Origin: a phage
Sequence record: PX068455.1
DNA length: 64,000 nucleotides
Direction: 5' to 3' (one strand)
A model generated the notes under the pieces. The model had not been told where the DNA came from, searched no databases, and saw only the letters and a list, made by a program, of their open reading frames with translations. Position 1 is the first letter of the stretch; every line of letters begins with the position of its first letter. Positions 14,940 through 25,996 of the stretch are shown here, piece after piece. A program made the position numbers and the translations under genes.

Positions 14940-15398
14940 TCAACACCCTTTGTACTCCACCACGATAATATCTATATCAAAAGTGGCAAGGTTAATAATG
15001 TCCTCTACATGTTCCCACTTCAAACCGCCTATGCCGCACCCGATCTTAGGGATGTAGAATGGTAAAATCGACCCCTCAAATACTTCATTGACTCGCTCAA
15101 ATCCTTTCAGTATTGAGAAATATTCAGCATTAGGTCCTGGATAGAACTGAGTATACAGATTTATTCCGTAGACAATACCTCTCGGAGATAAGTGCTCCCA
15201 ACGGGAGAACGCGCCCAGTTTACTTAGGCAACCGTGCATAGTCATTTTATCAGCTTCCAATGCTTGAGGGAATTCACGAGCAATCTGCTTTGCTACACCC
15301 TTCCCCATTGTGTGGAAGCAGTTACAACCGTGGATCAGGTGACCAGCACCGCTCTTAAAAAGGGAGATTAAATCTCCCTCTACAGTATCAATAATCAC
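14940..15398 (-). CDS. macro-domain (ADP-ribose-binding/processing) protein
   Basis: VEGDLISL..GAGHLIHGCNCFHTMGKGVAKQIAREFP resembles macro-domain signature; GTG start with SD AGGAG chosen, 11-nt overlap with upstream gene. Confidence 0.55.
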   Translation of the reverse strand: MIIDTVEGDLISLFKSGAGHLIHGCNCFHTMGKGVAKQIAREFPQALEADKMTMHGCLSKLGAFSRWEHLSPRGIVYGINLYTQFYPGPNAEYFSILKGFERVNEVFEGSILPFYIPKIGCGIGGLKWEHVEDIINLATFDIDIIVVEYKGC

Positions 15399-16604: not shown

Positions 16605-16636
16605 ATACAAAAATGCCCCACCCTTTCGGGTAGGGC
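16605..16636 (-). terminator. Rho-independent terminator with GAAA tetraloop
   Basis: GCCCTACCC-GAAA-GGGTGGGGC followed by ATTTTTG on minus strand; near-identical element near 26774. Confidence 0.55.
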
Positions 16637-16651
16637 TATGTTAACTAGATG

Positions 16652-17878
16652 TTAAAAAGGTATGTCATCATCAAAGGCGTACTGTGCCGGATTCTGATCC
16701 ATCGGGTCGTCTTCCGCATCATCTACAGGAGGAGCGTCTACAGTGTTTTGCTGTGGGGCGGCTTCCTGTTTGGCAGCTTGAGGCTCTTGATGGTCAGTGG
16801 CTCCAGCACCGTTCTTGATCCAATCATACAACGGTTCAGCAAGATTAGTCAAGACATCTTTTGCCTCTGCAGTAATTGCTACTGCAAAATCATCAACTTT
16901 CGTTTTCTTGTCAATACGGCGACAAGCGTTCAATACCGCATTACCAACACTGGCACCTACTTCATCTTCAGTTCGGTTAGTGGCTTGAGCGTACTCTTTC
17001 TTAAGCTCGATGGTGACCACGTGCAGTGTTTTAGCCACATCTAAAGGGCTGTCAATCTTAAACCCGCGATCCAGGATGATCTGCAATGCATTGATACTGT
17101 GCCCTGTCTCTACACCGATGGGGTCGTAAGAGGATTTACGCTTACCACCAGAACCTTGTGTACCGTTCTCTGCTTTAGGCGGGTAGGCCTTGAAGCCGCT
17201 GATAATATTCCCGGTGTCTTTGTCAACAATAGCTGCAACACGACCGCCAACCACCAGGTCTTTAAGCTGCTCATCAGAGACAACCATAGCACCTTCACCA
17301 ATCTTGTGATCATTGACAGTAACCACGTTGCCAACAATCTGAGTCACATCACCATAGATGCGTAAAACGTCCTGATTGGCATTCTGCTGAGGTTTCTGCT
17401 TCTGGCCTTGTGATTGTGTGCCTTGTTGCTGTTTTTGTTGCTGTGGAGCTGCTGGAGCCTCTCCTGCCCCCAACTTAACCATTTTAGCCAGTGAGCCTTT
17501 GTAGTAGGTCTTGCCGTTATGCTCGTTTGCCTTCAAAGGGATATTTACGATCCATCCTGGCGTTACGGTTTCCCACTTGTCGTCAATTTTAACAGAGACG
17601 GAGTCTTGATGACCAGGCTTAAGCAGCTTATCACCCATACTGATCCAAACTTCTTCACCACCTTGGAGCAGGTTATCAGAGGAGTCCAGTTCAGAAATCA
17701 GTAAAGAGATGGTGTGGCTGGATTCAATTTTCTTACCTTGCCACACAGTGGTTTTAATACCTGTTGTAGGATCAGCACCTTTAATGGGCTTGATGCTGAC
17801 ACGTTTAATCATACCGTGAGCCAGTAAAACAGTTTCACGCGGATTCATCGGGTTGGCAAATTGTTGAATAACGCTCAT
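16652..17878 (-). CDS. ssDNA-binding-like protein with SSB-type acidic C-terminal tail (408 aa)
   Basis: C-terminus ...AFDDDIPF; Gln-rich linker QQQKQQQGTQSQGQKQKPQQ; ATG after SD AAGGAGA overlapping upstream stop (TAATG). Confidence 0.5.
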   Translation of the reverse strand: MSVIQQFANPMNPRETVLLAHGMIKRVSIKPIKGADPTTGIKTTVWQGKKIESSHTISLLISELDSSDNLLQGGEEVWISMGDKLLKPGHQDSVSVKIDDKWETVTPGWIVNIPLKANEHNGKTYYKGSLAKMVKLGAGEAPAAPQQQKQQQGTQSQGQKQKPQQNANQDVLRIYGDVTQIVGNVVTVNDHKIGEGAMVVSDEQLKDLVVGGRVAAIVDKDTGNIISGFKAYPPKAENGTQGSGGKRKSSYDPIGVETGHSINALQIILDRGFKIDSPLDVAKTLHVVTIELKKEYAQATNRTEDEVGASVGNAVLNACRRIDKKTKVDDFAVAITAEAKDVLTNLAEPLYDWIKNGAGATDHQEPQAAKQEAAPQQNTVDAPPVDDAEDDPMDQNPAQYAFDDDIPF

Positions 17879-18288
17879 TATTTGTCTCCTTGTTCTTCGT
17901 TGGTGTTTGCTGTGTGTGCAAACCCTGCTTGAATTAATTTGTCCTGCACTTGAGCCAACAGGCCCATTGCAAAACTTGTCGTCCCAGAAAGGGCCATTAG
18001 CATATCTCGTTGCTGAGCTACCCAACCTAAGGCATAATCTAAACGACGATATTTTTCTTCTTCGCGCAGAGCCTGAAATAACTGTTCAGCCTCTGGTTGT
18101 TGTGTGAGCTCCTGAAGTCTTCCCATAAAAGAAGAAAGTACCAGCAGAAGAGACACTTGATCTTTGCTTAACCCTAAGAAAAATTCTTGAGGTTGTTCTT
18201 GCTCGTTCATCGCAACCGACGCTTGATCGTTCATTTGTTCCATTGTGGAATCTCCGATTTTATTTGAACAACATAAAGGAGACACCAT
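17878..18288 (-). CDS. hypothetical protein (136 aa)
   Basis: ORF track; SD AGGAGA before ATG. Confidence 0.5.
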   Translation of the reverse strand: MVSPLCCSNKIGDSTMEQMNDQASVAMNEQEQPQEFFLGLSKDQVSLLLVLSSFMGRLQELTQQPEAEQLFQALREEEKYRRLDYALGWVAQQRDMLMALSGTTSFAMGLLAQVQDKLIQAGFAHTANTNEEQGDK

Positions 18289-18325
18289 TTTAGCATCTCC
18301 TTCTGTAAATTACAACAGCTATTTA

Positions 18326-18571
18326 TTAGCCAATTACTTCGAAAGTGCCCCAACTCCCGTTCAGCAGGCAGGTGATCGGATCACCATCATCGTCAATTAT
18401 TTCAAAGTTTTCAACATCCAGAATATGGTCATCGAACACAATACTTTCGTCACCACCACCAGAAACAACAGTGTATTCCTTACCTTGAGTCAAGTTTTGA
18501 CACCCTTTGCCACCAAAACCTACTTCAACACAACGTACTTTCTGTCCTGCGCGAGCAACTACTTCAGCCAT
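18326..18571 (-). CDS. small DDxGD-motif protein, paralogue family member 1
   Basis: Contains IDDDGDPITC; see tandem family finding. Confidence 0.5.
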   Translation of the reverse strand: MAEVVARAGQKVRCVEVGFGGKGCQNLTQGKEYTVVSGGGDESIVFDDHILDVENFEIIDDDGDPITCLLNGSWGTFEVIG

Positions 18572-18588
18572 CTTAAGGTCTCCTGATA

Positions 18589-18909
18589 TTAATCGTCAAG
18601 TTCAAAATAGATTTTAACAGCTTCATCAAAGATTGGAATCCCGATGTTGTTGATAAGCTGCCAAACTACCATATCTTTTCCTGGATCTGGGAGAATGTCA
18701 ACCTTTCTCCATGCGCTGTATATCCAGTTCGGACCGCCTTCTGCACTAACTGGTAGATTTTCACCAGCTTCCTGTAGATACTTATACAGCAAAAGGTATT
18801 CTGGATACTCTAGAACACTGTCCTCTGTAGTATACAGCAGTTCACGGTATACTTTCAAGAATCCTGTTGGGTTGATGTTTTCAGTCTTCATTTGCTGCTT
18901 CTCCTGCAT
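18589..18909 (-). CDS. hypothetical protein (106 aa)
   Basis: ORF track. Confidence 0.5.
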   Translation of the reverse strand: MQEKQQMKTENINPTGFLKVYRELLYTTEDSVLEYPEYLLLYKYLQEAGENLPVSAEGGPNWIYSAWRKVDILPDPGKDMVVWQLINNIGIPIFDEAVKIYFELDD

Positions 18910-19285
18910 TCATCAGATCTGCCATAGCGTCACCAACGAAGAGGACAACCACGTCGTTGACAGCGTCAGCATCATCTTTATTGATGTTGCTGAATTTGGG
19001 GCACACTGCAATGACCATATAGACCCCGTTGCCCAACTGAACAGTGCGTGTAGTGCACATCAGTGTGGTGCTTGTGCCTTCTTTAAAGGCAAATCCTTGC
19101 AGACGTTCTTCCAGAGAGCCACCTGTGGATTTCAACAAGGCAAGATCTCCCAGTGCGTAGGTAGTGTCCTCATAGGTCAGTCCAGAGGTCAATGTTGCCT
19201 TTCCATCAGAGACTATAATAACTCCATCGGCACCGTCAAGCTCAGAGGCTTCAAAGATATTAATATCCCAAATGTTTTTCATCAC
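18881..19285 (-). CDS. hypothetical protein (134 aa)
   Basis: ORF track; antisense 18644..19306 rejected. Confidence 0.5.
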   Translation of the reverse strand: MMKNIWDINIFEASELDGADGVIIVSDGKATLTSGLTYEDTTYALGDLALLKSTGGSLEERLQGFAFKEGTSTTLMCTTRTVQLGNGVYMVIAVCPKFSNINKDDADAVNDVVVLFVGDAMADLMNAGEAANED

Positions 19286-19554
19286 GCTTCCTCGTCATCT
19301 AAGTAATCATCAAGAGAGGTGAAGATTTCACCGAAGTATTCTAATACCTCCAGCTCTCTGGTGGTGCAACAAACATAATCTCCCTGGTCATCCTTGATAG
19401 TAGCCTCCTTACCTAGCACATCCACTTCAAATTCATCGTTTAGCAGGACGGCCCCTGTGTAAATTTTGTCTGCTGTGCAGTCCCGAAAAGCAGAGTCCTT
19501 CTCCAGATAGTCTGGCTTAACCTTGGCTTTAATTCGTTGATATTGTTTGGTCAT
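19282..19554 (-). CDS. small DDxGD-motif protein, family member 2
   Basis: ORF 19282..19614 trimmed to ATG with SD AAGGAG; KPDYLEKDSAFRDCT..IKDDQGDYVCCT parallels next gene. Confidence 0.5.
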   Translation of the reverse strand: MTKQYQRIKAKVKPDYLEKDSAFRDCTADKIYTGAVLLNDEFEVDVLGKEATIKDDQGDYVCCTTRELEVLEYFGEIFTSLDDYLDDEEA

Positions 19555-19617
19555 TGCTGTGGTCTCCTTTCGTTTTGATAGGGCCATTATATTAGACCCC
19601 ATCTCTATTGTCAAGTA

Positions 19618-19872
19618 TTAATGCTCAGGTTTTACAAAAACTACTTCGTTAACAGTGCACCAGACAGAATCCCCTTCATCATCTTTAAAGGTAAGACACT
19701 GGGCCGAGTTTTCCAACTCATCAAGTTCTTCTTGTGATAAACAGGTTCCTTCTTCCAGAAGGGCTTTTACCAAAGGGTTCTCACAAAACTCTGCTTCATA
19801 AATTGCACCGAGTGTGCAATCTTTAAAAGCTCGGTCATTTGCAACGCATTCTGGCTTCAAAGTGATTTGCAT
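19618..19872 (-). CDS. small DDxGD-motif protein, family member 3
   Basis: KPECVANDRAFKDCT..FKDDEGDSVWCT. Confidence 0.5.
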   Translation of the reverse strand: MQITLKPECVANDRAFKDCTLGAIYEAEFCENPLVKALLEEGTCLSQEELDELENSAQCLTFKDDEGDSVWCTVNEVVFVKPEH

Positions 19873-19948
19873 CTTAGCAGTCTCCTCAATTATTTAAAAA
19901 TCAAATCTCTGTTTGTGTGAAGTATCTTATATCCAATCTTACTTCTTG

Positions 19949-20347
19949 TCAATGGCTATTTTCAATCATCCACACAGGGTCGAGGTAAATTTGTTGGCGT
20001 TTTGCCCAATGACAAACTTCATTGTACATCTGAATCTCTTTGTCTGTCAATTCACGAATAGGCTCATCTATACCCTCATTTTTGTGGTAATCCCAGTCGG
20101 CATCGATTTCCCACAACCATGACTTACGATCTTCACGCTTACGCACACAGAAGTCCCCAGGACGGCCTGCCAGTGCATTTAAGAACTCGTTCTCCGCTCG
20201 CTCCTGAAGAATACTAAGGAGCAAAACGTTGGAGCATGACCGTAAAATATGCTTCAGCTCACAATCATCAATCTCAACTTCAATACGTTGCTTGACTGTG
20301 TGGGTACCTTTTACTAACATTCTACCTCCTCTATACAAACTCTGCAA
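19949..20347 (-). CDS. hypothetical protein (132 aa)
   Basis: ORF track. Confidence 0.5.
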   Translation of the reverse strand: MQSLYRGGRMLVKGTHTVKQRIEVEIDDCELKHILRSCSNVLLLSILQERAENEFLNALAGRPGDFCVRKREDRKSWLWEIDADWDYHKNEGIDEPIRELTDKEIQMYNEVCHWAKRQQIYLDPVWMIENSH

Positions 20348-20525
20348 GGGTTGTGTTGTTCACCGCACCGCAGTAGATGGAATATCCCAACCCATTAGGG
20401 TGCAGAAACCACGGCACACCTTGGTCATCCTTCACGTATACATCTCCATTTTTCGTGAAGGGCCAATACTCTTCCCCAAGGGTAAAATACCTACTCATAC
20501 CTTCAGCCAGATACTTTACTTTCAT
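20331..20525 (-). CDS. small DDxG-motif protein, family member 4
   Basis: VKDDQGVPWFLHPNG. Confidence 0.5.
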   Translation of the reverse strand: MKVKYLAEGMSRYFTLGEEYWPFTKNGDVYVKDDQGVPWFLHPNGLGYSIYCGAVNNTTLAEFV

Positions 20526-20749
20526 AGATCCTCTTCAACAGCTACAAACTTGGCAAGTAGGGTGGTTCCATAGATATGATACTCACCGTTTGCCAGATGG
20601 GAGATATACCAGGAGATACCGTCCTCGTCTTCGATCATATTGTTTCTGCGATCCTTATCGTAATAAACCTTGTAGACCTTACCTTCTTCAAAGAATGATA
20701 AATCTGTCATCTTCTCTTCTACAAACGTCGCTTTAACCAAAGTTGTCAT
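20522..20749 (-). CDS. small DDxG-motif protein, family member 5
   Basis: FFEEGKVYKVYY..IEDEDGISWYI. Confidence 0.5.
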   Translation of the reverse strand: MTTLVKATFVEEKMTDLSFFEEGKVYKVYYDKDRRNNMIEDEDGISWYISHLANGEYHIYGTTLLAKFVAVEEDL

Positions 20750-21030
20750 TGATCTGCCTCCTTCTTGTTAAGCCGGAACACTGCAATAATAGCATTTCCA
20801 AGATGCAGTGTCAAATCATTTCCCAGATACCACAGCATTCCACGGTCATCTTTAATGAAAGGGTAACAGTCTGGTGCCTTCCAGACATTATACACTTTGC
20901 CGACCTGAAAGAAATCAGGCCCTGTTGGAATTTTAGTACCGGGCCACACTTGAGACACCTGAACGCACTCTACCTGCATAATAACAGGAATAGTCATGGA
21001 GGTAAATGTTTTTGTCGGTTCTACTACCAT
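20746..21030 (-). CDS. small DDxG-motif protein, family member 6
   Basis: FFQVGKVYNVW..IKDDRGMLWYL. Confidence 0.5.
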   Translation of the reverse strand: MVVEPTKTFTSMTIPVIMQVECVQVSQVWPGTKIPTGPDFFQVGKVYNVWKAPDCYPFIKDDRGMLWYLGNDLTLHLGNAIIAVFRLNKKEADQ

Positions 21031-21081
21031 AAAAGTCTCCTCTCTTTGTCTAGCAACACTTCCGTGTGTTGATAGTTTACA

Positions 21082-23859
21082 TTAGTGACAATCGCCCCAG
21101 TTACGACCGCACAAGTATTCACCTGTGATCTGGAACGGAACGCCCATCATTTTAGAAGCCTGCCAGAAGCAATGCACCACCATTTCGCCCACAGGGCTCC
21201 AGATAAGTTCAAGCTTTCCGTCATCGTTCAAGATAGGATCGTATACCGTATTTCCGTCCTTGTCAACCATTTCGTTTCCATCCTCATCTTTGCGTGCCTT
21301 TTTGTACTTATGACCGTCGAACACATGAAGTTTAGCCTCCTGCTTGGCCTTAAATGTTTCCAGCTCTTCAATTGTGTCGAAGGTGTATACGGTTTTATAC
21401 TTAGGTGTGTCAGGCACTTGAAGCTGATATTCGTCATGGTAATAAATAATACGACGAACACCTTCATCATACCATCCACGCTTCACCATTTGGTGGTGCA
21501 TGAGGATTCCGACCAAGTCGCACAACGATGCACCGCCATTTTGCTGATATGCATTAAGCAAAGAGTGTTTAGAGCGGGTCCAAATGGCATGCCCGTCAAA
21601 AGAGTAGATAAATTTCTTACCTGTTGCTTCCCAGAATTTCTCCAGATCCTCTTTACGCCCCTTAAGGCCTGGGTTGGCATCCCAGAGAGCATCAATTACT
21701 CTCTGTCCAAGTTCTGGAGAGATATCTAGCATATCTGCAACTTTATCTTTTTGTGCCCCGTACATAACCCCATATGTGACAGGCTTACCATCGTTACGAG
21801 ACACCTCTCTACCTGCTACTTTTGTATATGCCTCAGCATTGTTTTGGTGCGCGTCCCCGTTACTTACAACATCATAATACAGACCGTTGTCAAACTCAAA
21901 GGCACCCCAGGCCCCGATGAGCTGCTCTAAGTTGGACCCGTCAATACCGATCTCAAAGTATCCCGGAGGAACACCCCACAGACTACGCATCTCTTTACCC
22001 ATAACCACTTTAGGAGATGGTTTAGGCATGTTTGCACAAATACTATGTTTCTGTCTGGAAGTGTTTGTTAATCCAGAACTTTTAGCAGGAAGCTTGTGGT
22101 CAATCTTCAAACGTGGATGATTAAGAAGACCAGTATCAACCTTATCTTCCTTGATTGGATCAAGGACCGATCTGCGGTTTCGCAATGATAACCACAAAAC
22201 GATATCTTTAGCCATCTCTCCGTTCAATTTTTCAAGATTCGGGCACAGGTGTCCAAACGTATCTTTCAGTTGCGGAGAAGTAATAAGCGCTCTGGCTTTT
22301 CTACGTATCTTCCCAAACACTTCCTTTTTAATCCTTTCTGAGTTAGGGAAGCTTCGGAACTTATGCACAGTTGTCTGGAACTTGGCATCAGTTTTGTTCC
22401 AGAAGTTGATAATTAGATCACAATACTCTGACTCTAAAAGCTCGTCCATATATGCATATACTCGTGCATCAACATCTGCATCAGGTAAAGCTTTCTTCTT
22501 ACTATCCTTAGTTACATCCTTAGTTCTCCACATTGTTGGGAGCCAACCAGCACTGATCAGGTATCGCTTGATGTCGTCCTGATTGCTGATTTTCATAGGT
22601 ATCTTGCAGTCAGGCATTCGCTTCTGCTGTAGGTCACTTATCGCCTGATCCATCAGCTCTTTAGGTAAAGGGTGTGGTGTAGAAGTTCCTTTGATATACC
22701 CCCTCAAGAAATCAGCCATCTTATCGGGGTCTTTACAGCCCATCTCTTCACACCATTTTATCCCCATCTTACTTACATCCCCTGTGGAGGTAAATGCTCG
22801 CTTAGGAGGGGCTTTAAATTCTAAAGCACTCATGTCTACAGGATAGCCAAGCTTGTCTTTTAACCATTTCCAACCATTATTGGAGATTGTCCCATCTTGG
22901 TTAAACGGCTTTTCAGGGAACTTAGGCCGTTGAGACATTGATAGCTCTTTTAAAGGAAGTTGTGGTTCAACACGATCAGCGATCTCTTTCATCCACGCAT
23001 CGCAGCGGTCACGTAAAGCAATAGCCCCATCTATGTCGAAATACACCCCCTGTCGAGCCTGCAGCTCCATCAGGAAGTGCTGTAACATGCCTCGGCGTAA
23101 TGCGTTCTTCCAGGTGATCTTCTTGAAGCCTTTCGGCTTCTCTTTGGCAGGATCGTACATAAAGTTCTGCATGTCAGATTTGCCGTAGAATACACCTTTT
23201 GATTCAGCTACCAACTCCTTCCAGAGCAACTCCTGAATGATAACGTCCTCGAACACACGATCCACATACTTCCACAGCGGAAGCTCACGCCAGTCATCGA
23301 TTTGAACTTTCTGGTTACCAAGGGCATAGCCCCATGCCATAAGGCCATGAGGCCCAACAGGCTGCATTTTCTTGGTAACTGGATTGAATACTGCGTCCGG
23401 ACAACCTTTTGGCAAAGGGCGGTCAGGCCACAAGATTCGACTCATCGCTAACGTATCAAACAGATTAACCTGGTGGTCGTTGATAGTTCCCATGCATTTA
23501 GGATCACGGAACATATCAAAATGAATACCGGATAATCTTTCCATCAGCATAAAGTCGTAACTGTAGCAGTTATGGCAGTTCAAAGCCGTAGGTGACCAGT
23601 CTGAATTGCCTGTAAGCCAGCCTTCCAACTCTGAAAAATCTGCTATGCGAGCCTCAAAATCTGTATAAAGGGTCTTCTTTGCCAGAATGAAGTTCTTAGC
23701 TTTCTCCACATCCTCTTCAGAGTAGTGTGTGCGGTCATTTAGGGGAAGGAACAGCATAAAACGGTTCTTATTCAGCTCTTTAAACAAACCGCAGTGATAA
23801 TAAAGATCTGGGTCTTCCAGCAAGCCAGAGGCCTCAAAATCGAACGACCACATGCTCAT
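21082..23859 (-). CDS. DNA polymerase, family A (Pol I-like) with 3'-5' exonuclease domain (925 aa)
   Basis: N-terminal exo motif SFDFEASG; Pol A motif B KPVTYGVMYGAQ; motif C YHDE; ATG with SD AAGGAGA. Confidence 0.85.
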   Translation of the reverse strand: MSMWSFDFEASGLLEDPDLYYHCGLFKELNKNRFMLFLPLNDRTHYSEEDVEKAKNFILAKKTLYTDFEARIADFSELEGWLTGNSDWSPTALNCHNCYSYDFMLMERLSGIHFDMFRDPKCMGTINDHQVNLFDTLAMSRILWPDRPLPKGCPDAVFNPVTKKMQPVGPHGLMAWGYALGNQKVQIDDWRELPLWKYVDRVFEDVIIQELLWKELVAESKGVFYGKSDMQNFMYDPAKEKPKGFKKITWKNALRRGMLQHFLMELQARQGVYFDIDGAIALRDRCDAWMKEIADRVEPQLPLKELSMSQRPKFPEKPFNQDGTISNNGWKWLKDKLGYPVDMSALEFKAPPKRAFTSTGDVSKMGIKWCEEMGCKDPDKMADFLRGYIKGTSTPHPLPKELMDQAISDLQQKRMPDCKIPMKISNQDDIKRYLISAGWLPTMWRTKDVTKDSKKKALPDADVDARVYAYMDELLESEYCDLIINFWNKTDAKFQTTVHKFRSFPNSERIKKEVFGKIRRKARALITSPQLKDTFGHLCPNLEKLNGEMAKDIVLWLSLRNRRSVLDPIKEDKVDTGLLNHPRLKIDHKLPAKSSGLTNTSRQKHSICANMPKPSPKVVMGKEMRSLWGVPPGYFEIGIDGSNLEQLIGAWGAFEFDNGLYYDVVSNGDAHQNNAEAYTKVAGREVSRNDGKPVTYGVMYGAQKDKVADMLDISPELGQRVIDALWDANPGLKGRKEDLEKFWEATGKKFIYSFDGHAIWTRSKHSLLNAYQQNGGASLCDLVGILMHHQMVKRGWYDEGVRRIIYYHDEYQLQVPDTPKYKTVYTFDTIEELETFKAKQEAKLHVFDGHKYKKARKDEDGNEMVDKDGNTVYDPILNDDGKLELIWSPVGEMVVHCFWQASKMMGVPFQITGEYLCGRNWGDCH

Positions 23860-23917: not shown

Positions 23918-25996
23918 TTAAAAAGGTGTTTCGTCGTCTTCAAAACCAGGAACGTGGTTAGAGGACGGATCATCATACTGAAGATCTTCCTGTGTGTCAA
24001 CAGGGTTAACAGCAGGAGTTATAACCTTATCAGCCACAACCTTGCCCACAGGTGTTTCTACAACTGCATGCTCCTGATCCTCAAACATAGCTTGAGGTCT
24101 CCAAACAACCTCTCCACCTTCCCCGTCTGTAAACATCTGCATCTCTTTATCCCAATACCAATTGCTGGCATCGTGGAACTTGCCTGTGTGGGGATCCATA
24201 ACTAGGGTGTCCGCAATACCTAAGGTTTTTGCTGGGCGGTTTTTAAGACCTACCAGCCGGACACGTCCACGGGAACGATCCACCATCTCCTCTGCCTCTA
24301 CCCCGACAACCACCCAGCTAAGTTGCTCCAATCCGGCACTACCGCGAAGGTTCTCTTTTCGCACAGGGTACCAGAAAGGTAACGGATTTCCATCCTTATC
24401 CTTCGGAGGTACAATCTCTGTGCGCTTCAGGTGAGCAATCACCAAGATAAACACATTAAACTGCTTACAGAACGCGGCTAGTTGAGTCATAGCCATGTCA
24501 AGCTCTTTACGCTCATCCTTAACATTAAGCCCTGAAATCACCATAGACAAGTGATCCAGCACAATGTAACGGCAGTGATACAGGCACACCATTTGTTTAA
24601 GCTTAGTGATCAGCTCATCTACAGGGATGGAGCCGAAATGCTTGAACACTTTGATTTTTCCGGCCTTGGCCCAAGATTGATGAATCTCAGCGTGCTCCTG
24701 ATCGGTCAGGAACTGACTGGGGTCTTCAACAAACTCTTTAACATCAAACCCCAGCTGGTTAGCGTACAGAGAGTTGATTGCTTCCTCAGGATCCTCTTCA
24801 AGGTGAATCAGGCACAGGCGATCATCCTCTTCATAATCATCAGCTTTAGGGCATGTTGGGTCCATCAAGTATCTTGCAATGCAATGTTCCAGCTTCTTGG
24901 CTACAGTTGTTTTACCACCGCCAGACGGGCCTGTCAGCATCATCAAGGTGCCTTTGTGGAGTCCTTTCAGCATCTTCTGCAGTTTAGGGAACTCTGCACT
25001 AATATCCACGCCATTGGAAGTCTTCTTACGAAGAGATTCAATGGAGAAGTCTTCTAAATCAGATACAGCATCAGGCACATATTTGACTGGGTGACGGAAC
25101 ATGTTGACAATATCTTCCAGCTTTTTAGCCTTCAGCATGTCACGAATATCTTTTACACCATCAGGGTCGTTTACCTCACCTGGGTATTCCACGTGGTAAA
25201 CGTTGTCAGCCATCAAAAATGCTGCGATATTATGCGTAGCTTCAACACCTTTGATAACGTGTTTTTGCTTCTCTACCTCGTTAGCTGCATCGTTGTCCAT
25301 TGCAAGGACTACTGTTCCGTAGCTACGGATAAATTTCTCATTGTTCGCAAAAGTGTCTACGGCGTTTGCACACCCGCAGTTAATTCCGACAAAAGGCAGG
25401 CATGGTTTTCCTGCCAGATCACCGCCGTTGATAACTGCATCAATCCCATCCTGGACTTCTTTAGCCCACTGCTTCACCTTCGCTGGGGCTTTAGCATTGG
25501 TGAGAATACCTTTTACTTGTACCTGATATGCAGCCTGCCACGCTGCAATAACATCTCCTTCCCCCTCACAAACGTTAATCTGCTTGCGGTTGTTGGAGGA
25601 TGCACACAGCTTTTGACCAAACATCTGGGAGTTGGCCTTTACTATGCCGACAACCGAGAAATGGCCCCTTTGCTCTTTAGGGATTGTCCAGTCACGCTTT
25701 TTAAAGCCAGATAGATTACCGTAGCGGTCATAATACGGAAAGTAGGTGGCAGTAACAGTTACGCCATCCTCTTGGGATAGCGATGATCGTACACCAAAAT
25801 ATTGTGCAGCCATCAGTCCAATATTTTGTTGTGGAACAGGGACAATTTTAGTATTTTCTAAAACAGTCTCTACAGTTTCAACTTCTTTTTCATCACGATA
25901 GTCTCGTTTCACACTTCCCCCACTTTTATACTTAGTTGCTTTCGGGTTTGGCTCACCGAAACGGTTGTATGCAGATGCCATGAATTTACTGCCCAT
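23918..25996 (-). CDS. primase-helicase fusion (TOPRIM primase plus DnaB-like helicase; 692 aa)
   Basis: TOPRIM-like EGEGDV; Walker A GPSGGGKTT; Walker B-like ILVIAH. Confidence 0.8.
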   Translation of the reverse strand: MGSKFMASAYNRFGEPNPKATKYKSGGSVKRDYRDEKEVETVETVLENTKIVPVPQQNIGLMAAQYFGVRSSLSQEDGVTVTATYFPYYDRYGNLSGFKKRDWTIPKEQRGHFSVVGIVKANSQMFGQKLCASSNNRKQINVCEGEGDVIAAWQAAYQVQVKGILTNAKAPAKVKQWAKEVQDGIDAVINGGDLAGKPCLPFVGINCGCANAVDTFANNEKFIRSYGTVVLAMDNDAANEVEKQKHVIKGVEATHNIAAFLMADNVYHVEYPGEVNDPDGVKDIRDMLKAKKLEDIVNMFRHPVKYVPDAVSDLEDFSIESLRKKTSNGVDISAEFPKLQKMLKGLHKGTLMMLTGPSGGGKTTVAKKLEHCIARYLMDPTCPKADDYEEDDRLCLIHLEEDPEEAINSLYANQLGFDVKEFVEDPSQFLTDQEHAEIHQSWAKAGKIKVFKHFGSIPVDELITKLKQMVCLYHCRYIVLDHLSMVISGLNVKDERKELDMAMTQLAAFCKQFNVFILVIAHLKRTEIVPPKDKDGNPLPFWYPVRKENLRGSAGLEQLSWVVVGVEAEEMVDRSRGRVRLVGLKNRPAKTLGIADTLVMDPHTGKFHDASNWYWDKEMQMFTDGEGGEVVWRPQAMFEDQEHAVVETPVGKVVADKVITPAVNPVDTQEDLQYDDPSSNHVPGFEDDETPF

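What the first reader, a model, noticed from the sequence alone, without database searches (positions are those of the whole stretch)
16652..17878. Unusually long SSB-like protein with a canonical DDDIPF tail
The ORF ends in ...AFDDDIPF, the acidic tip bacterial SSBs use to recruit partners, and has a Gln-rich linker. At 408 aa it is more than twice the size of a standard SSB, with ~220 residues of unassigned sequence between linker and tail. It may be a fusion of an OB-fold module with a second domain, or a protein mimicking the SSB tail to hijack SSB-interacting host proteins.
Basis: partly seen in the sequence, partly recalled or inferred. Interest (0 to 1): 0.45.

Follow-up and report, generated by a model that had tools for sequence, protein, structure and literature searches.

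The report
Phage SSB-like protein with host-type tail
This gene of an rV5-like E. coli phage most likely encodes the phage's own single-stranded-DNA-binding protein, a non-standard multi-domain type ending in the same tail E. coli SSB uses to recruit partners; a 97%-identical ortholog was described in a 2026 preprint as the trigger of a bacterial defence system.

Summary
The ORF is real. It lies on the minus strand (16652-17878), encodes 408 aa, has a GGAG ribosome-binding site, overlaps the upstream gene's stop (TAATG), ends ...AFDDDIPF*, and is followed by a strong terminator.

It is not a sequence homolog of bacterial SSB (no Pfam or PDB sequence hit). AlphaFold models show:
- a Gln-rich linker
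- a second small OB-topology barrel (170-234)
- a 4-helix domain (251-357)
- a ~45-aa acidic disordered region and the tip

The N-domain family has 116 clusters at 50% identity (PHROG 4477, "unknown function"). Of 107 near-full-length members, 84 end in an acidic x-P-F tip. Members sit a few small ORFs downstream of a T7-type primase/helicase and family-A polymerase. A curated relative has no other annotated SSB.

The window protein is 97% identical to Bas52_0087. A 2026 bioRxiv preprint describes that protein as SSB-like with a FDDDIPF tip and as the trigger of the DRT10 defence. Its escape mutations (D252V, Y351C) fall in my helical domain.

ssDNA binding and tip partners remain untested. 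Side observation: an HNH homing-endonuclease cassette inserts at the tip codons in relatives and adds 15 residues.

The parts
16652..17878 (-). Complete CDS of the 408-aa SSB-like protein including the stop codon. Ortholog of rV5 ORF214 and Bas52_0087.
   Evidence: Full-length match to phrog_4477, E 1.5e-172. 396/408 identical to Bas52_0087.
17886..17889 (-). Shine-Dalgarno GGAG, 7 nt upstream of the ATG. The ATG overlaps the upstream gene's stop (TAATG), which suggests translational coupling.
   Evidence: sequence read directly.
17462..17878 (-). N-terminal OB-fold domain (aa 1-139); the proposed ssDNA-binding module.
17372..17461 (-). Gln-rich disordered linker 1 (aa 140-169; 13 Q of 30).
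   Evidence: pLDDT below 50 for 140-169; composition.
17177..17371 (-). Middle small beta-barrel (aa 170-234) with OB topology (b1-b2-b3-helix-b4-b5). Present only in the ~345-418-aa members of the family.
   Evidence: Secondary-structure order in the model. Foldseek hits of 65-72 columns to IF1 and proteasome Rpt OB domains, prob 0.96-1.0, but assigning these to the middle domain is my inference. Absent in P0056, P0057 and the phi92-type homolog. The preprint reports 'two OB-fold domains'.
17129..17176 (-). Short basic Gly/Ser-rich linker 2 (aa 235-250).
   Evidence: pLDDT below 50 for 237-249; net charge +3.
16808..17128 (-). Four-helix domain (aa 251-357) with the conserved motifs GVETGHxIN and VGASVGNAVLNAC. 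Carries D252 and Y351, the DRT10 escape positions in Bas52. Proposed self-association module.
16679..16807 (-). Acidic intrinsically disordered region (aa 358-400; net charge -9; rich in A, D, Q, P).
   Evidence: pLDDT below 50 for 359-403; composition.
16655..16678 (-). C-terminal tip AFDDDIPF (aa 401-408). The last six residues are identical to the E. coli SSB-Ct, and it sits at the true C-terminus in this genome.
16605..16636 (-). Intrinsic terminator: a 9-bp stem with 7 G-C pairs (GCCCTACCCGAAAGGGTGGGGC) followed by ATTTTTGTAT. It starts 16 nt after the stop codon and ends the transcription unit.
17878..18243 (-). Upstream, translationally coupled 121-aa gene (homolog of rV5 ORF215; phrog_7310, unknown function). 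Possible partner; function unknown.
21082..23859 (-). Family-A DNA polymerase on the same strand, about 3.2 kb upstream. Syntenic partner across the family. Annotated 'hypothetical protein' in ECP2309.
   Evidence: Same gene order in distant members L013, L014 and in BME3.
23918..25996 (-). T7-type DNA primase/helicase (DnaB_C domain), immediately upstream of the polymerase.

Best explanation
This is the phage's own single-stranded-DNA-binding protein. It belongs to a phage-specific multi-domain OB-fold family (PHROG 4477) that works with a T7-type replisome (primase/helicase plus family-A polymerase).

Proposed mechanism:
- The N-terminal OB fold binds ssDNA. This is inferred from the fold and from conserved aromatic and basic positions.
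- In the rV5 clade, a second small OB-like barrel adds a further nucleic-acid or spacing module (inferred).
- The 4-helix domain mediates self-association or cooperativity. This is inferred and is supported by the DRT10 escape substitutions D252V and Y351C of the 97%-identical Bas52_0087, which map there.
- The ~45-aa acidic disordered region presents the C-terminal DDDIPF tip. Like the E. coli SSB-Ct, the tip would dock into the pockets of partner proteins: host SSB-interacting proteins such as ExoI/SbcB, PriA, RecQ and chi, and/or the phage polymerase and helicase (inferred).

By coating phage ssDNA and competing with host SSB for these partners, the protein would perturb host ssDNA metabolism. 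That perturbation is what DRT10-carrying hosts sense, according to the preprint's genetics.

Shown here: the gene structure, the predicted domain architecture, the family-wide conservation of the tip, the synteny, and the orthology to Bas52_0087. Not shown anywhere: ssDNA binding, oligomeric state, or any tip-partner interaction.
For: - SSB-like layout: folded core, disordered acidic linker, and a DDDIPF tip at the true C-terminus.
- Tip conservation: 84 of 107 representatives end in x-P-F, with a mean of 4.8 acidic residues in the preceding nine. Several end in PPMDFDDDIPF, which equals the last 11 residues of E. coli SSB.
- Conserved synteny: primase/helicase, then PolA, then small ORFs, then this gene. 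Seen in the window, next to the polymerase in phi92-type BME3, and in two metagenomic members at 26-34% identity.
- No other SSB candidate: none is annotated in the curated BASEL relative DrSchubert, and none is listed in the rV5 genome paper (PMC3606486).
- DNA-binding-type residues: across 95 N-domains, position 102 is aromatic in 100%, Y126 in 80%, and K97 and K123 are conserved.
- Independent report: Phold and AlphaFold2 called Bas52_0087 SSB-like with two OB folds and a FDDDIPF C-tip; it is required for DRT10 activation, and SbcB dosage modulates the defence (bioRxiv 10.64898/2026.04.29.721553). The window protein is 97% identical to it.
- Expression context: strong sigma70-like promoters upstream and a terminator right after the gene fit an early or middle replication gene.
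Against: - No sequence-level homology to any characterised SSB: no Pfam hit for the query or for 40 other family members scanned (30 in A1, 10 distant representatives); no PDB sequence hit apart from the tail; hhalign against the E. coli SSB OB domain gives nothing; hhalign against a T1-like phage SSB gives only a local hairpin (probability 34%, or 7.5% with deep profiles).
- No biochemical data on ssDNA binding exist, including in the preprint.
- In rV5 and roughly a third of close relatives the tip is followed by 15 extra residues. Since SSB-Ct binding uses the free carboxylate of the terminal Phe (established knowledge), canonical tip docking may be dispensable for phage viability.
- Expressing Bas52_0087 alone is neither toxic nor sufficient to trigger DRT10, which argues against massive titration of essential host partners.
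Confidence: 0.7

Rival explanations
1. Tail decoy. The protein does not act as an SSB on DNA. It is chiefly a mimic that displays the host SSB-Ct on an oligomeric scaffold, to sequester or redirect host SSB-interacting proteins (ExoI/SbcB, RecQ, PriA, Ung and others) and so protect phage DNA ends or block host repair.
For: The tip is identical to the host's, and in many family members the last 11 residues are. There is a genetic link between Bas52_0087, SbcB/ExoI and DRT10 activation. The OB domain has no sequence similarity to known SSBs. The DRT10 escape mutations lie in the helical, putative oligomerization domain and not in the OB fold.
Against: The best structural matches of the N-domain are genuine SSBs. 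Aromatic and basic positions are conserved in the OB domain. The gene keeps its synteny with the replisome genes, and the genome has no other SSB candidate. Expression alone is not toxic to E. coli. Viable relatives carry a capped tip.
Confidence: 0.13
2. Recombination mediator or annealing protein. An OB fold plus a helical domain, as in RecO, or an SSB with annealase activity like T7 gp2.5, supplies the recombinase-accessory function that the genome otherwise lacks. The tail would recruit it to host-SSB partner sites.
Against: The RecO scores are no better than those of dozens of other OB folds. RecO binds the SSB tip; it does not carry one (established knowledge). The helical domain has no specific match to RecO's. 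The architecture of folded core, acidic disordered linker and tip is the hallmark of SSBs. This rival is also not exclusive, because T7 gp2.5 both binds ssDNA and anneals.
Confidence: 0.1
3. The C-terminal DDDIPF is coincidental or a recently captured fragment with no function, and the protein is an unrelated OB-fold protein.
For: In some relatives the tip is followed by extra residues and the phages are viable. rV5-type alleles read FCDDIPF in place of FDDDIPF.
Against: The chance probability is about 1.6e-8. P and F are invariant in 31 homologs. 84 of 107 divergent representatives end in an acidic x-P-F tip. The tip always follows a disordered acidic region.
Confidence: 0.02

Closest known systems
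Bas52_0087 (QXV84166.1) of Escherichia phage RudolfGeigy/Bas52, the 'SSB-like' trigger of the DRT10 (UG17) reverse-transcriptase defence (bioRxiv 10.64898/2026.04.29.721553)
   Same: Ortholog. It is 396/408 residues identical, has the same length and the same FDDDIPF-type tip, and D252 and Y351 are conserved. It sits at the same genomic position. The preprint's predicted architecture (two OB folds plus a disordered C-terminus) agrees with my model.
   Different: 12 substitutions (for example ...QYAFDDDIPF here against ...QYSFDDDIPF). The preprint does not describe the 4-helix domain as a separate module, the family-wide distribution, the synteny, or the homing-endonuclease-linked tail extension. 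Neither study has biochemistry.
E. coli SSB (bacterial SSB family, Pfam PF00436)
   Different: No detectable sequence homology in the OB domain. The protein is 2.3 times longer, has a second beta-barrel and a 4-helix domain between the OB fold and the tail, and the OB domain carries extra hairpins (141 aa against about 110). Its oligomeric state is unknown.
T7 gp2.5 (SSB of the T7 replisome) and DUF2815 phage SSBs
   Same: A phage-specific OB-fold SSB partnered with a primase-helicase and a family-A polymerase. It has an acidic C-terminal tail ending in Phe that, in T7, contacts the polymerase and helicase (established knowledge; Kong and Richardson 1998 as cited in PMC5928155). There is a weak Foldseek hit to DUF2815 4klk (E 0.069).
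   Different: No sequence match. The tail here is the bacterial DDDIPF type, not the T7 ...DGDF type. gp2.5 is a single-domain protein of 232 aa without a helical domain.
Phage HK620 SSB working with Sak4 (PMC5928155)
   Same: A phage-encoded, divergent SSB whose last six residues (NDYPPF, similar to DDDIPF) are needed to recruit a phage partner protein onto SSB-coated ssDNA. It is a precedent for a phage SSB tip serving phage partners as well as host ones.
   Different: HK620 SSB is a short tetrameric SSB (21 kDa monomer) adjacent to a recombinase. Here no recombinase is adjacent and the architecture has three domains.
RPA and Deinococcus-Thermus SSBs (several OB folds per polypeptide)
   Same: More than one OB fold in a single chain. 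RPA70, RPA32 and Thermus SSB are among the best structural hits.
   Different: The second barrel here is much smaller (about 65 aa, IF1-like), is separated by a 30-aa disordered linker, and is dispensable in most of the family.

Membership tests
Bacterial-type SSB (Pfam PF00436, E. coli SSB-like) | OB domain matches the PF00436 profile (sequence homology) | tested here: not met
   No SSB hit for the query at E up to 10, for 31 homologs, or for 10 distant members. hhalign of the N-domain profile against the E. coli SSB OB domain gives probability 0.09%. PDB sequence searches match only the tail.
Bacterial-type SSB (Pfam PF00436, E. coli SSB-like) | OB fold structurally superimposable on SSB cores | tested here: met
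Bacterial-type SSB (Pfam PF00436, E. coli SSB-like) | Intrinsically disordered linker followed by an acidic C-terminal tip D-D-D-I-P-F with a free terminal Phe | tested here: met
   pLDDT below 50 for 359-403. Net charge -9 over 358-400. The sequence ends AFDDDIPF followed by a stop.
Bacterial-type SSB (Pfam PF00436, E. coli SSB-like) | Homotetramer formed by the OB domains; cooperative ssDNA binding | not testable with these tools
   No multimer modelling or biochemistry was available. The preprint only infers an oligomerization interface.
PHROG 4477 / Bas52_0087-like phage SSB-like proteins | Full-length profile match and orthology to Bas52_0087, including D252 and Y351 | tested here: met
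   phrog_4477 E 1.5e-172, covering 1-408 of the query and 1-393 of 393 profile positions. 97% identity to QXV84166.1. D252 and Y351 present.
PHROG 4477 / Bas52_0087-like phage SSB-like proteins | Core architecture: N-terminal OB domain, 4-helix domain, acidic disordered tail ending in x-P-F | tested here: met
   Model. Alignment of 31 members. 116 representatives, of which 84 of 107 near-full-length ones carry the tip. The 2-domain members lack only the middle barrel.
PHROG 4477 / Bas52_0087-like phage SSB-like proteins | Located downstream of the primase/helicase and family-A DNA polymerase genes | tested here: met
   Window; BME3; L013 and L014.
PHROG 4477 / Bas52_0087-like phage SSB-like proteins | Triggers the DRT10 defence during infection | not testable with these tools
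   Genetic result reported only for Bas52. 97% identity makes it likely for this phage, but that is an inference.
T7 gp2.5-type / DUF2815 phage SSBs | Sequence or clear fold match to gp2.5 or DUF2815 | tested here: inconclusive
T7 gp2.5-type / DUF2815 phage SSBs | Acidic C-terminal tail ending in an aromatic residue, encoded together with a T7-type primase-helicase and PolA | tested here: met
   This shows a functional analogy, not membership.
RecO-like recombination mediators | N-terminal OB fold plus a helical domain (and a zinc finger) specifically matching RecO | tested here: inconclusive

The most novel reading that the evidence does not exclude
The host-identical tip makes this phage SSB a competing interaction hub that pulls ExoI/SbcB and other SSB-interacting proteins away from host SSB during infection. 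This is the perturbation that DRT10 senses.

In addition, a mobile HNH endonuclease cassette homes specifically into the tip-coding codons of unrelated phage ssb genes. I saw it in the rV5/phi92-type family, in T1-like SSBs, and in canonical PF00436 SSBs of lambdoid phages. It leaves a conserved 15-residue cap (AP[IV]GLQYGxxx[IL][HY]A[LI]) after the terminal Phe. The cap would mask or retune the tip, creating natural 'tip-on' and 'tip-off' alleles within one phage genus.
Probability: 0.2. Interest if true: 0.7.

Novelty: already known. Interest (0 to 1): 0.4.

Why it matters
rV5-like, phi92-like and related large myoviruses are used as therapeutic and biocontrol phages, yet their genomes list no SSB. 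Nearly all of the 278 phage records carrying this gene call it 'hypothetical'.

Assigning it as the replisome's SSB fills a gap in annotation. It also defines a phage SSB family that has no Pfam model but carries the bacterial partner-recruitment tip.

The ortholog has just been implicated as the sensor target of a reverse-transcriptase defence (DRT10) together with host ExoI. The domain map given here tells experimenters which pieces to test:
- the OB fold for DNA binding
- the 4-helix domain for self-association, since that is where the escape mutations lie
- the tip for partner binding

Natural alleles with a capped tip (rV5, DrSchubert) and an uncapped tip (this phage, Bas52) offer a ready-made comparison.

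Tried and rejected
- Pfam, single-sequence PDB and profile PDB searches found no domain. Only the tail matched E. coli SSB.
- hhalign of the N-domain profile against the E. coli SSB OB domain found no relation.
- The motif EYNGKTYY resembles ETREYNGKMY in a T1-like phage SSB (morffagbaw). I spent a homolog search on this. The similarity stayed local (25-27 columns) and non-significant, at probability 34% and then 7.5% with deeper profiles. Rejected as evidence of homology.
- Middle domain against IF1 by hhalign, and against PDB sequence profiles: nothing. Its OB assignment rests on topology, on short high-probability Foldseek hits whose query range is not reported, and on the preprint's statement.
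- I first considered that the 15-aa extension in homologs (APVGLQYGKSRIHAL) was stop-codon readthrough or a mis-called stop in the window. Rejected: in the window the TAA is followed by unrelated sequence and a terminator, and the difference from rV5 is a clean 640-nt insertion.
- I then considered the extension a pure by-product of the homing-endonuclease insertion. This holds only in part, because the extension also occurs without a downstream endonuclease in phi92-type phages, in L005 and in HK75.
- The alternative 457-aa ORF from the TTG at 18025 was rejected. It overlaps the upstream gene and no homolog supports it.
- There are no tRNA genes and no Rfam families in the window.

Full report
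**1. The observation**

The window is from an rV5-like E. coli myovirus (Vequintavirus). It is 100% identical over 7 kb to Escherichia phages ECP2303 and ECP2309.

The ORF at 16652-17878 is open only on the minus strand. It encodes 408 aa, MSVIQQF...AFDDDIPF*. Its ATG (17878-17876) follows a GGAG and overlaps the stop of the upstream gene as TAATG. All homologs begin at the same residues.

Sixteen bases after the TAA lies a strong intrinsic terminator, with a 9-bp stem, 7 G-C pairs and a T-run. Several strong sigma70-like promoters lie upstream on the same strand.

Residues 140-169 contain 13 Gln out of 30. Only the strand was unstated.

**2. The tail is not a chance match**

- A random C-terminal hexamer equals DDDIPF with probability of about 1.6e-8.
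- P407 and F408 are invariant in an alignment of 31 homologs down to 29% identity.
- A profile of the N-terminal domain alone, searched against 1.84 billion representative proteins, found 116 clusters. Of the 107 that are near full length, 84 end in [ILVMA]-P-F (60 in exactly IPF). Eleven more have the motif within 30 residues of the end. On average 4.8 of the nine preceding residues are acidic.
- Several members end in PPMDFDDDIPF, identical to the last 11 residues of E. coli SSB.

**3. What the protein is made of**

No Pfam family matches the query, the 30 other members of alignment A1, or 10 distant representatives. PDB sequence searches match only the tail. The only family hit is PHROG 4477, 'unknown function', over the full length.

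An AlphaFold2 model built from the 31-sequence alignment gives these modules:

| Residues | Module | Confidence |
|---|---|---|
| 1-138 | beta domain | pLDDT 80-92 |
| 140-169 | disordered Gln-rich linker | pLDDT below 50 |
| 170-233 | five-stranded barrel, order b1-b2-b3-short helix-b4-b5 (OB topology) | about 80 |
| 237-249 | short linker | pLDDT below 50 |
| 253-355 | four helices | about 90 |
| 359-403 | disordered acidic stretch (net charge -9) | pLDDT below 50 |
| 401-408 | tip (AFDDDIPF) | low (404-405 reach pLDDT 50; the rest below) |

Modelled alone, the N-domain reaches pLDDT 89.5 and pTM 0.81.

Across 95 family N-domains, position 102 is aromatic in every sequence, and K97, K123 and Y126 are conserved. 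This fits an ssDNA-binding OB surface, but it is an inference.

Profile-profile comparisons found no sequence homology to the E. coli SSB OB domain, nor to a T1-like phage SSB beyond a local hairpin. The link to SSBs is therefore at the fold level only.

The helical domain matches only generic helical bundles. Its conserved motifs (GVETGHxIN, VGASVGNAVLNAC) have no known counterpart.

**4. Family and context**

The family has two size classes.
- Members of about 196-315 aa, for example phi92-type phages, P0056 and P0057, consist of the OB domain, the helical domain and the tail.
- Members of about 345-418 aa (rV5-type, Klebsiella and Salmonella SSE121-type, CR3, PhiTE) carry the additional middle barrel.

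Synteny is conserved.
- In the window the gene lies on the same strand about 3.2 kb downstream of a family-A DNA polymerase (21082-23859) and a DnaB-type primase/helicase (23918-25996).
- In phi92-type BME3 it lies two genes (about 1.2 kb) downstream of the polymerase.
- In two metagenomic 2-domain members (26-34% identical) the order is again primase/helicase, PolA, three or four small ORFs, then this gene.

A manually curated relative (BASEL phage DrSchubert) has no SSB, clamp or recombinase annotated anywhere. The rV5 genome paper lists a polymerase, helicases and a ligase but no SSB (PMC3606486). This gene is thus the only SSB candidate for a T7-style replisome.

**5. What is already known**

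A bioRxiv preprint of 30 April 2026 (10.64898/2026.04.29.721553) isolated escape mutants of BASEL phage Bas52 (RudolfGeigy, MZ501102) from the DRT10/UG17 reverse-transcriptase defence. Both mutants carry substitutions in Bas52_0087 (D252V and Y351C).

[quoted passage not shown] The authors propose interference with host ExoI/SbcB, whose dosage modulates the defence. Expressing the protein alone neither harms cells nor triggers DRT10. No DNA-binding or interaction biochemistry is reported.

The window protein is the ortholog: same locus, same length, 396/408 identical, and D252 and Y351 conserved. In my model both escape positions lie in the 4-helix domain, at the N-cap of helix 1 and in helix 4. 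This supports reading that domain as the self-association module.

**6. Mechanism**

The best-supported reading is a phage replicative SSB of a non-canonical family.
- The OB fold binds ssDNA.
- The helical domain provides self-association or cooperativity.
- The acidic disordered linker presents the tip.
- The DDDIPF tip recruits partners: host SSB-interacting proteins and/or the phage polymerase and helicase. This parallels E. coli SSB and, functionally, T7 gp2.5. Phage HK620 SSB is a precedent, since its last six residues recruit the phage protein Sak4 (PMC5928155).

I give this 0.7. The rivals are:
- a pure tail decoy that does not bind DNA (0.13)
- a RecO- or gp2.5-like recombination mediator (0.10; not mutually exclusive with the main reading)
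- a functionless tail (0.02)

**7. A complication worth recording**

Relative to the window, rV5 has a clean 640-nt insertion at the last codons of the gene. It extends the protein by 15 residues (…DDIPF-APVGLQYGKSRIHAL) and brings an HNH 'endonuclease VII' gene (rV5 gp213) whose ATG lies inside the extension. About 39 of roughly 116 close relatives carry this allele. The window and Bas52 do not.

The same kind of extension follows the IPF tip in unrelated SSBs:
- a canonical PF00436 SSB of lambdoid phage HK75 (…PPMDFDDDIPF-APVTLPFPRHAIHAI), with no endonuclease downstream
- a T1-like SSB (…DDDIPF-ASVGLQYGKHRIYAL) with an overlapping endonuclease; the first 44 residues of that endonuclease, a CxxC…CxxC module, are 66% identical to rV5 gp213, while the two nuclease parts differ
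- Vibrio phage SSBs
- phi92-type phages and a metagenomic member, both without an endonuclease downstream

This suggests a homing-endonuclease lineage that targets the conserved tip-coding sequence of phage ssb genes. Because SSB-Ct docking uses the free carboxylate of the terminal Phe (established knowledge), capped alleles should be impaired in canonical tip interactions. Either the tip is dispensable in the laboratory or the cap has its own role. I did not resolve this.

**8. Verdict**

The protein is not a member of the bacterial SSB sequence family. It is a member of a distinct phage family that works like an SSB and shares the bacterial tip.

A near-identical ortholog has already been described with the same features and a defence-trigger phenotype, so I rate the finding as already known (at preprint and prediction level). 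Interest is moderate at 0.4.

What this analysis adds:
- the three-module domain map, with the escape mutations placed in the helical domain
- the family-wide conservation of the tip
- the conserved replisome synteny
- the absence of any other annotated SSB in a curated relative
- the endonuclease-linked tail cap

Noticed in passing
window 16655-16660 (insertion point); L002 2537-3176 (rV5): Relative to the window, rV5 and about a third of close relatives carry a 640-nt insertion exactly at the last codons of the gene. It adds 15 residues (APVGLQYGKSRIHAL) after ...DDIPF and an HNH 'endonuclease VII' gene (rV5 gp213) whose ATG lies inside the extension. The window has the endonuclease-free allele with a free tip.
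   Followed up: partly
L010 1066-1572 (HK75 SSB); L011 1081-1984 (phage morffagbaw SSB plus endonuclease); L003 2563-3510 (BME3); L005 4001-5230: The same 15-16-aa cap (AP[IV]GLQYGxxx[IL][HY]A[LI], or APVTLPFPRHAIHAI) follows the IPF tip in SSBs of unrelated OB families: canonical PF00436 lambdoid SSB, T1-like SSB and Vibrio phage SSBs. It occurs both with and without an adjacent endonuclease. The endonucleases of rV5 and morffagbaw share a 66%-identical 44-aa N-terminal CxxC...CxxC module but have different nuclease parts. This suggests a homing-endonuclease lineage targeting the tip-coding sequence of phage ssb genes.
   Followed up: partly
P0001 (rV5-type allele), residues ~400-408; L002 2520-2540: Endonuclease-carrying alleles read ...YDFCDDIPF (TGT) where endonuclease-free alleles read ...FDDDIPF (GAT). 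This may be a target-site change that protects against re-cleavage.
   Followed up: no
window 21082-23859 (-) and 23918-25996 (-): In the closest GenBank records (ECP2309) the family-A DNA polymerase is annotated 'hypothetical protein' and the primase/helicase 'AAA family ATPase'. PHROG and Pfam scans identify them clearly.
   Followed up: yes
window 18287-21266, minus strand: There is a dense run of sigma70-like promoters upstream of the gene: 24 in 8.5 kb against 12.8 +/- 3.1 expected. It includes a perfect TTGACA-17-TATAAT at 19614-19586. This fits host-polymerase-driven early transcription of many small ORFs.
   Followed up: no
L013 5837-6001: In a distant 2-domain family member, the gene immediately upstream of the SSB-like gene belongs to the T7 gp5.9 (RecBCD inhibitor) Pfam family PF25708. 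This reinforces the T7-like organisation of the module.
   Followed up: no
window 17878-18243 (-): The 121-aa upstream gene (phrog_7310, homolog of rV5 ORF215) is translationally coupled to the SSB-like gene through a TAATG overlap and has no detectable domain. A similarly sized gene abuts the start in L004 and L005. It could be a partner protein.
   Followed up: no
phage records MG0656xx (e.g. MG065658, MG065655): About 16-20 records labelled 'Campylobacter phage' with host Campylobacter jejuni are 92-96% identical to E. coli rV5-like phages across this region. This is probably mislabelling or co-isolated coliphages.
   Followed up: no
window 14940-15398 (-): A macro-domain protein (the RB49 Tk.4-like gene in rV5) lies 1.3 kb downstream in the next transcription unit.
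   Followed up: no
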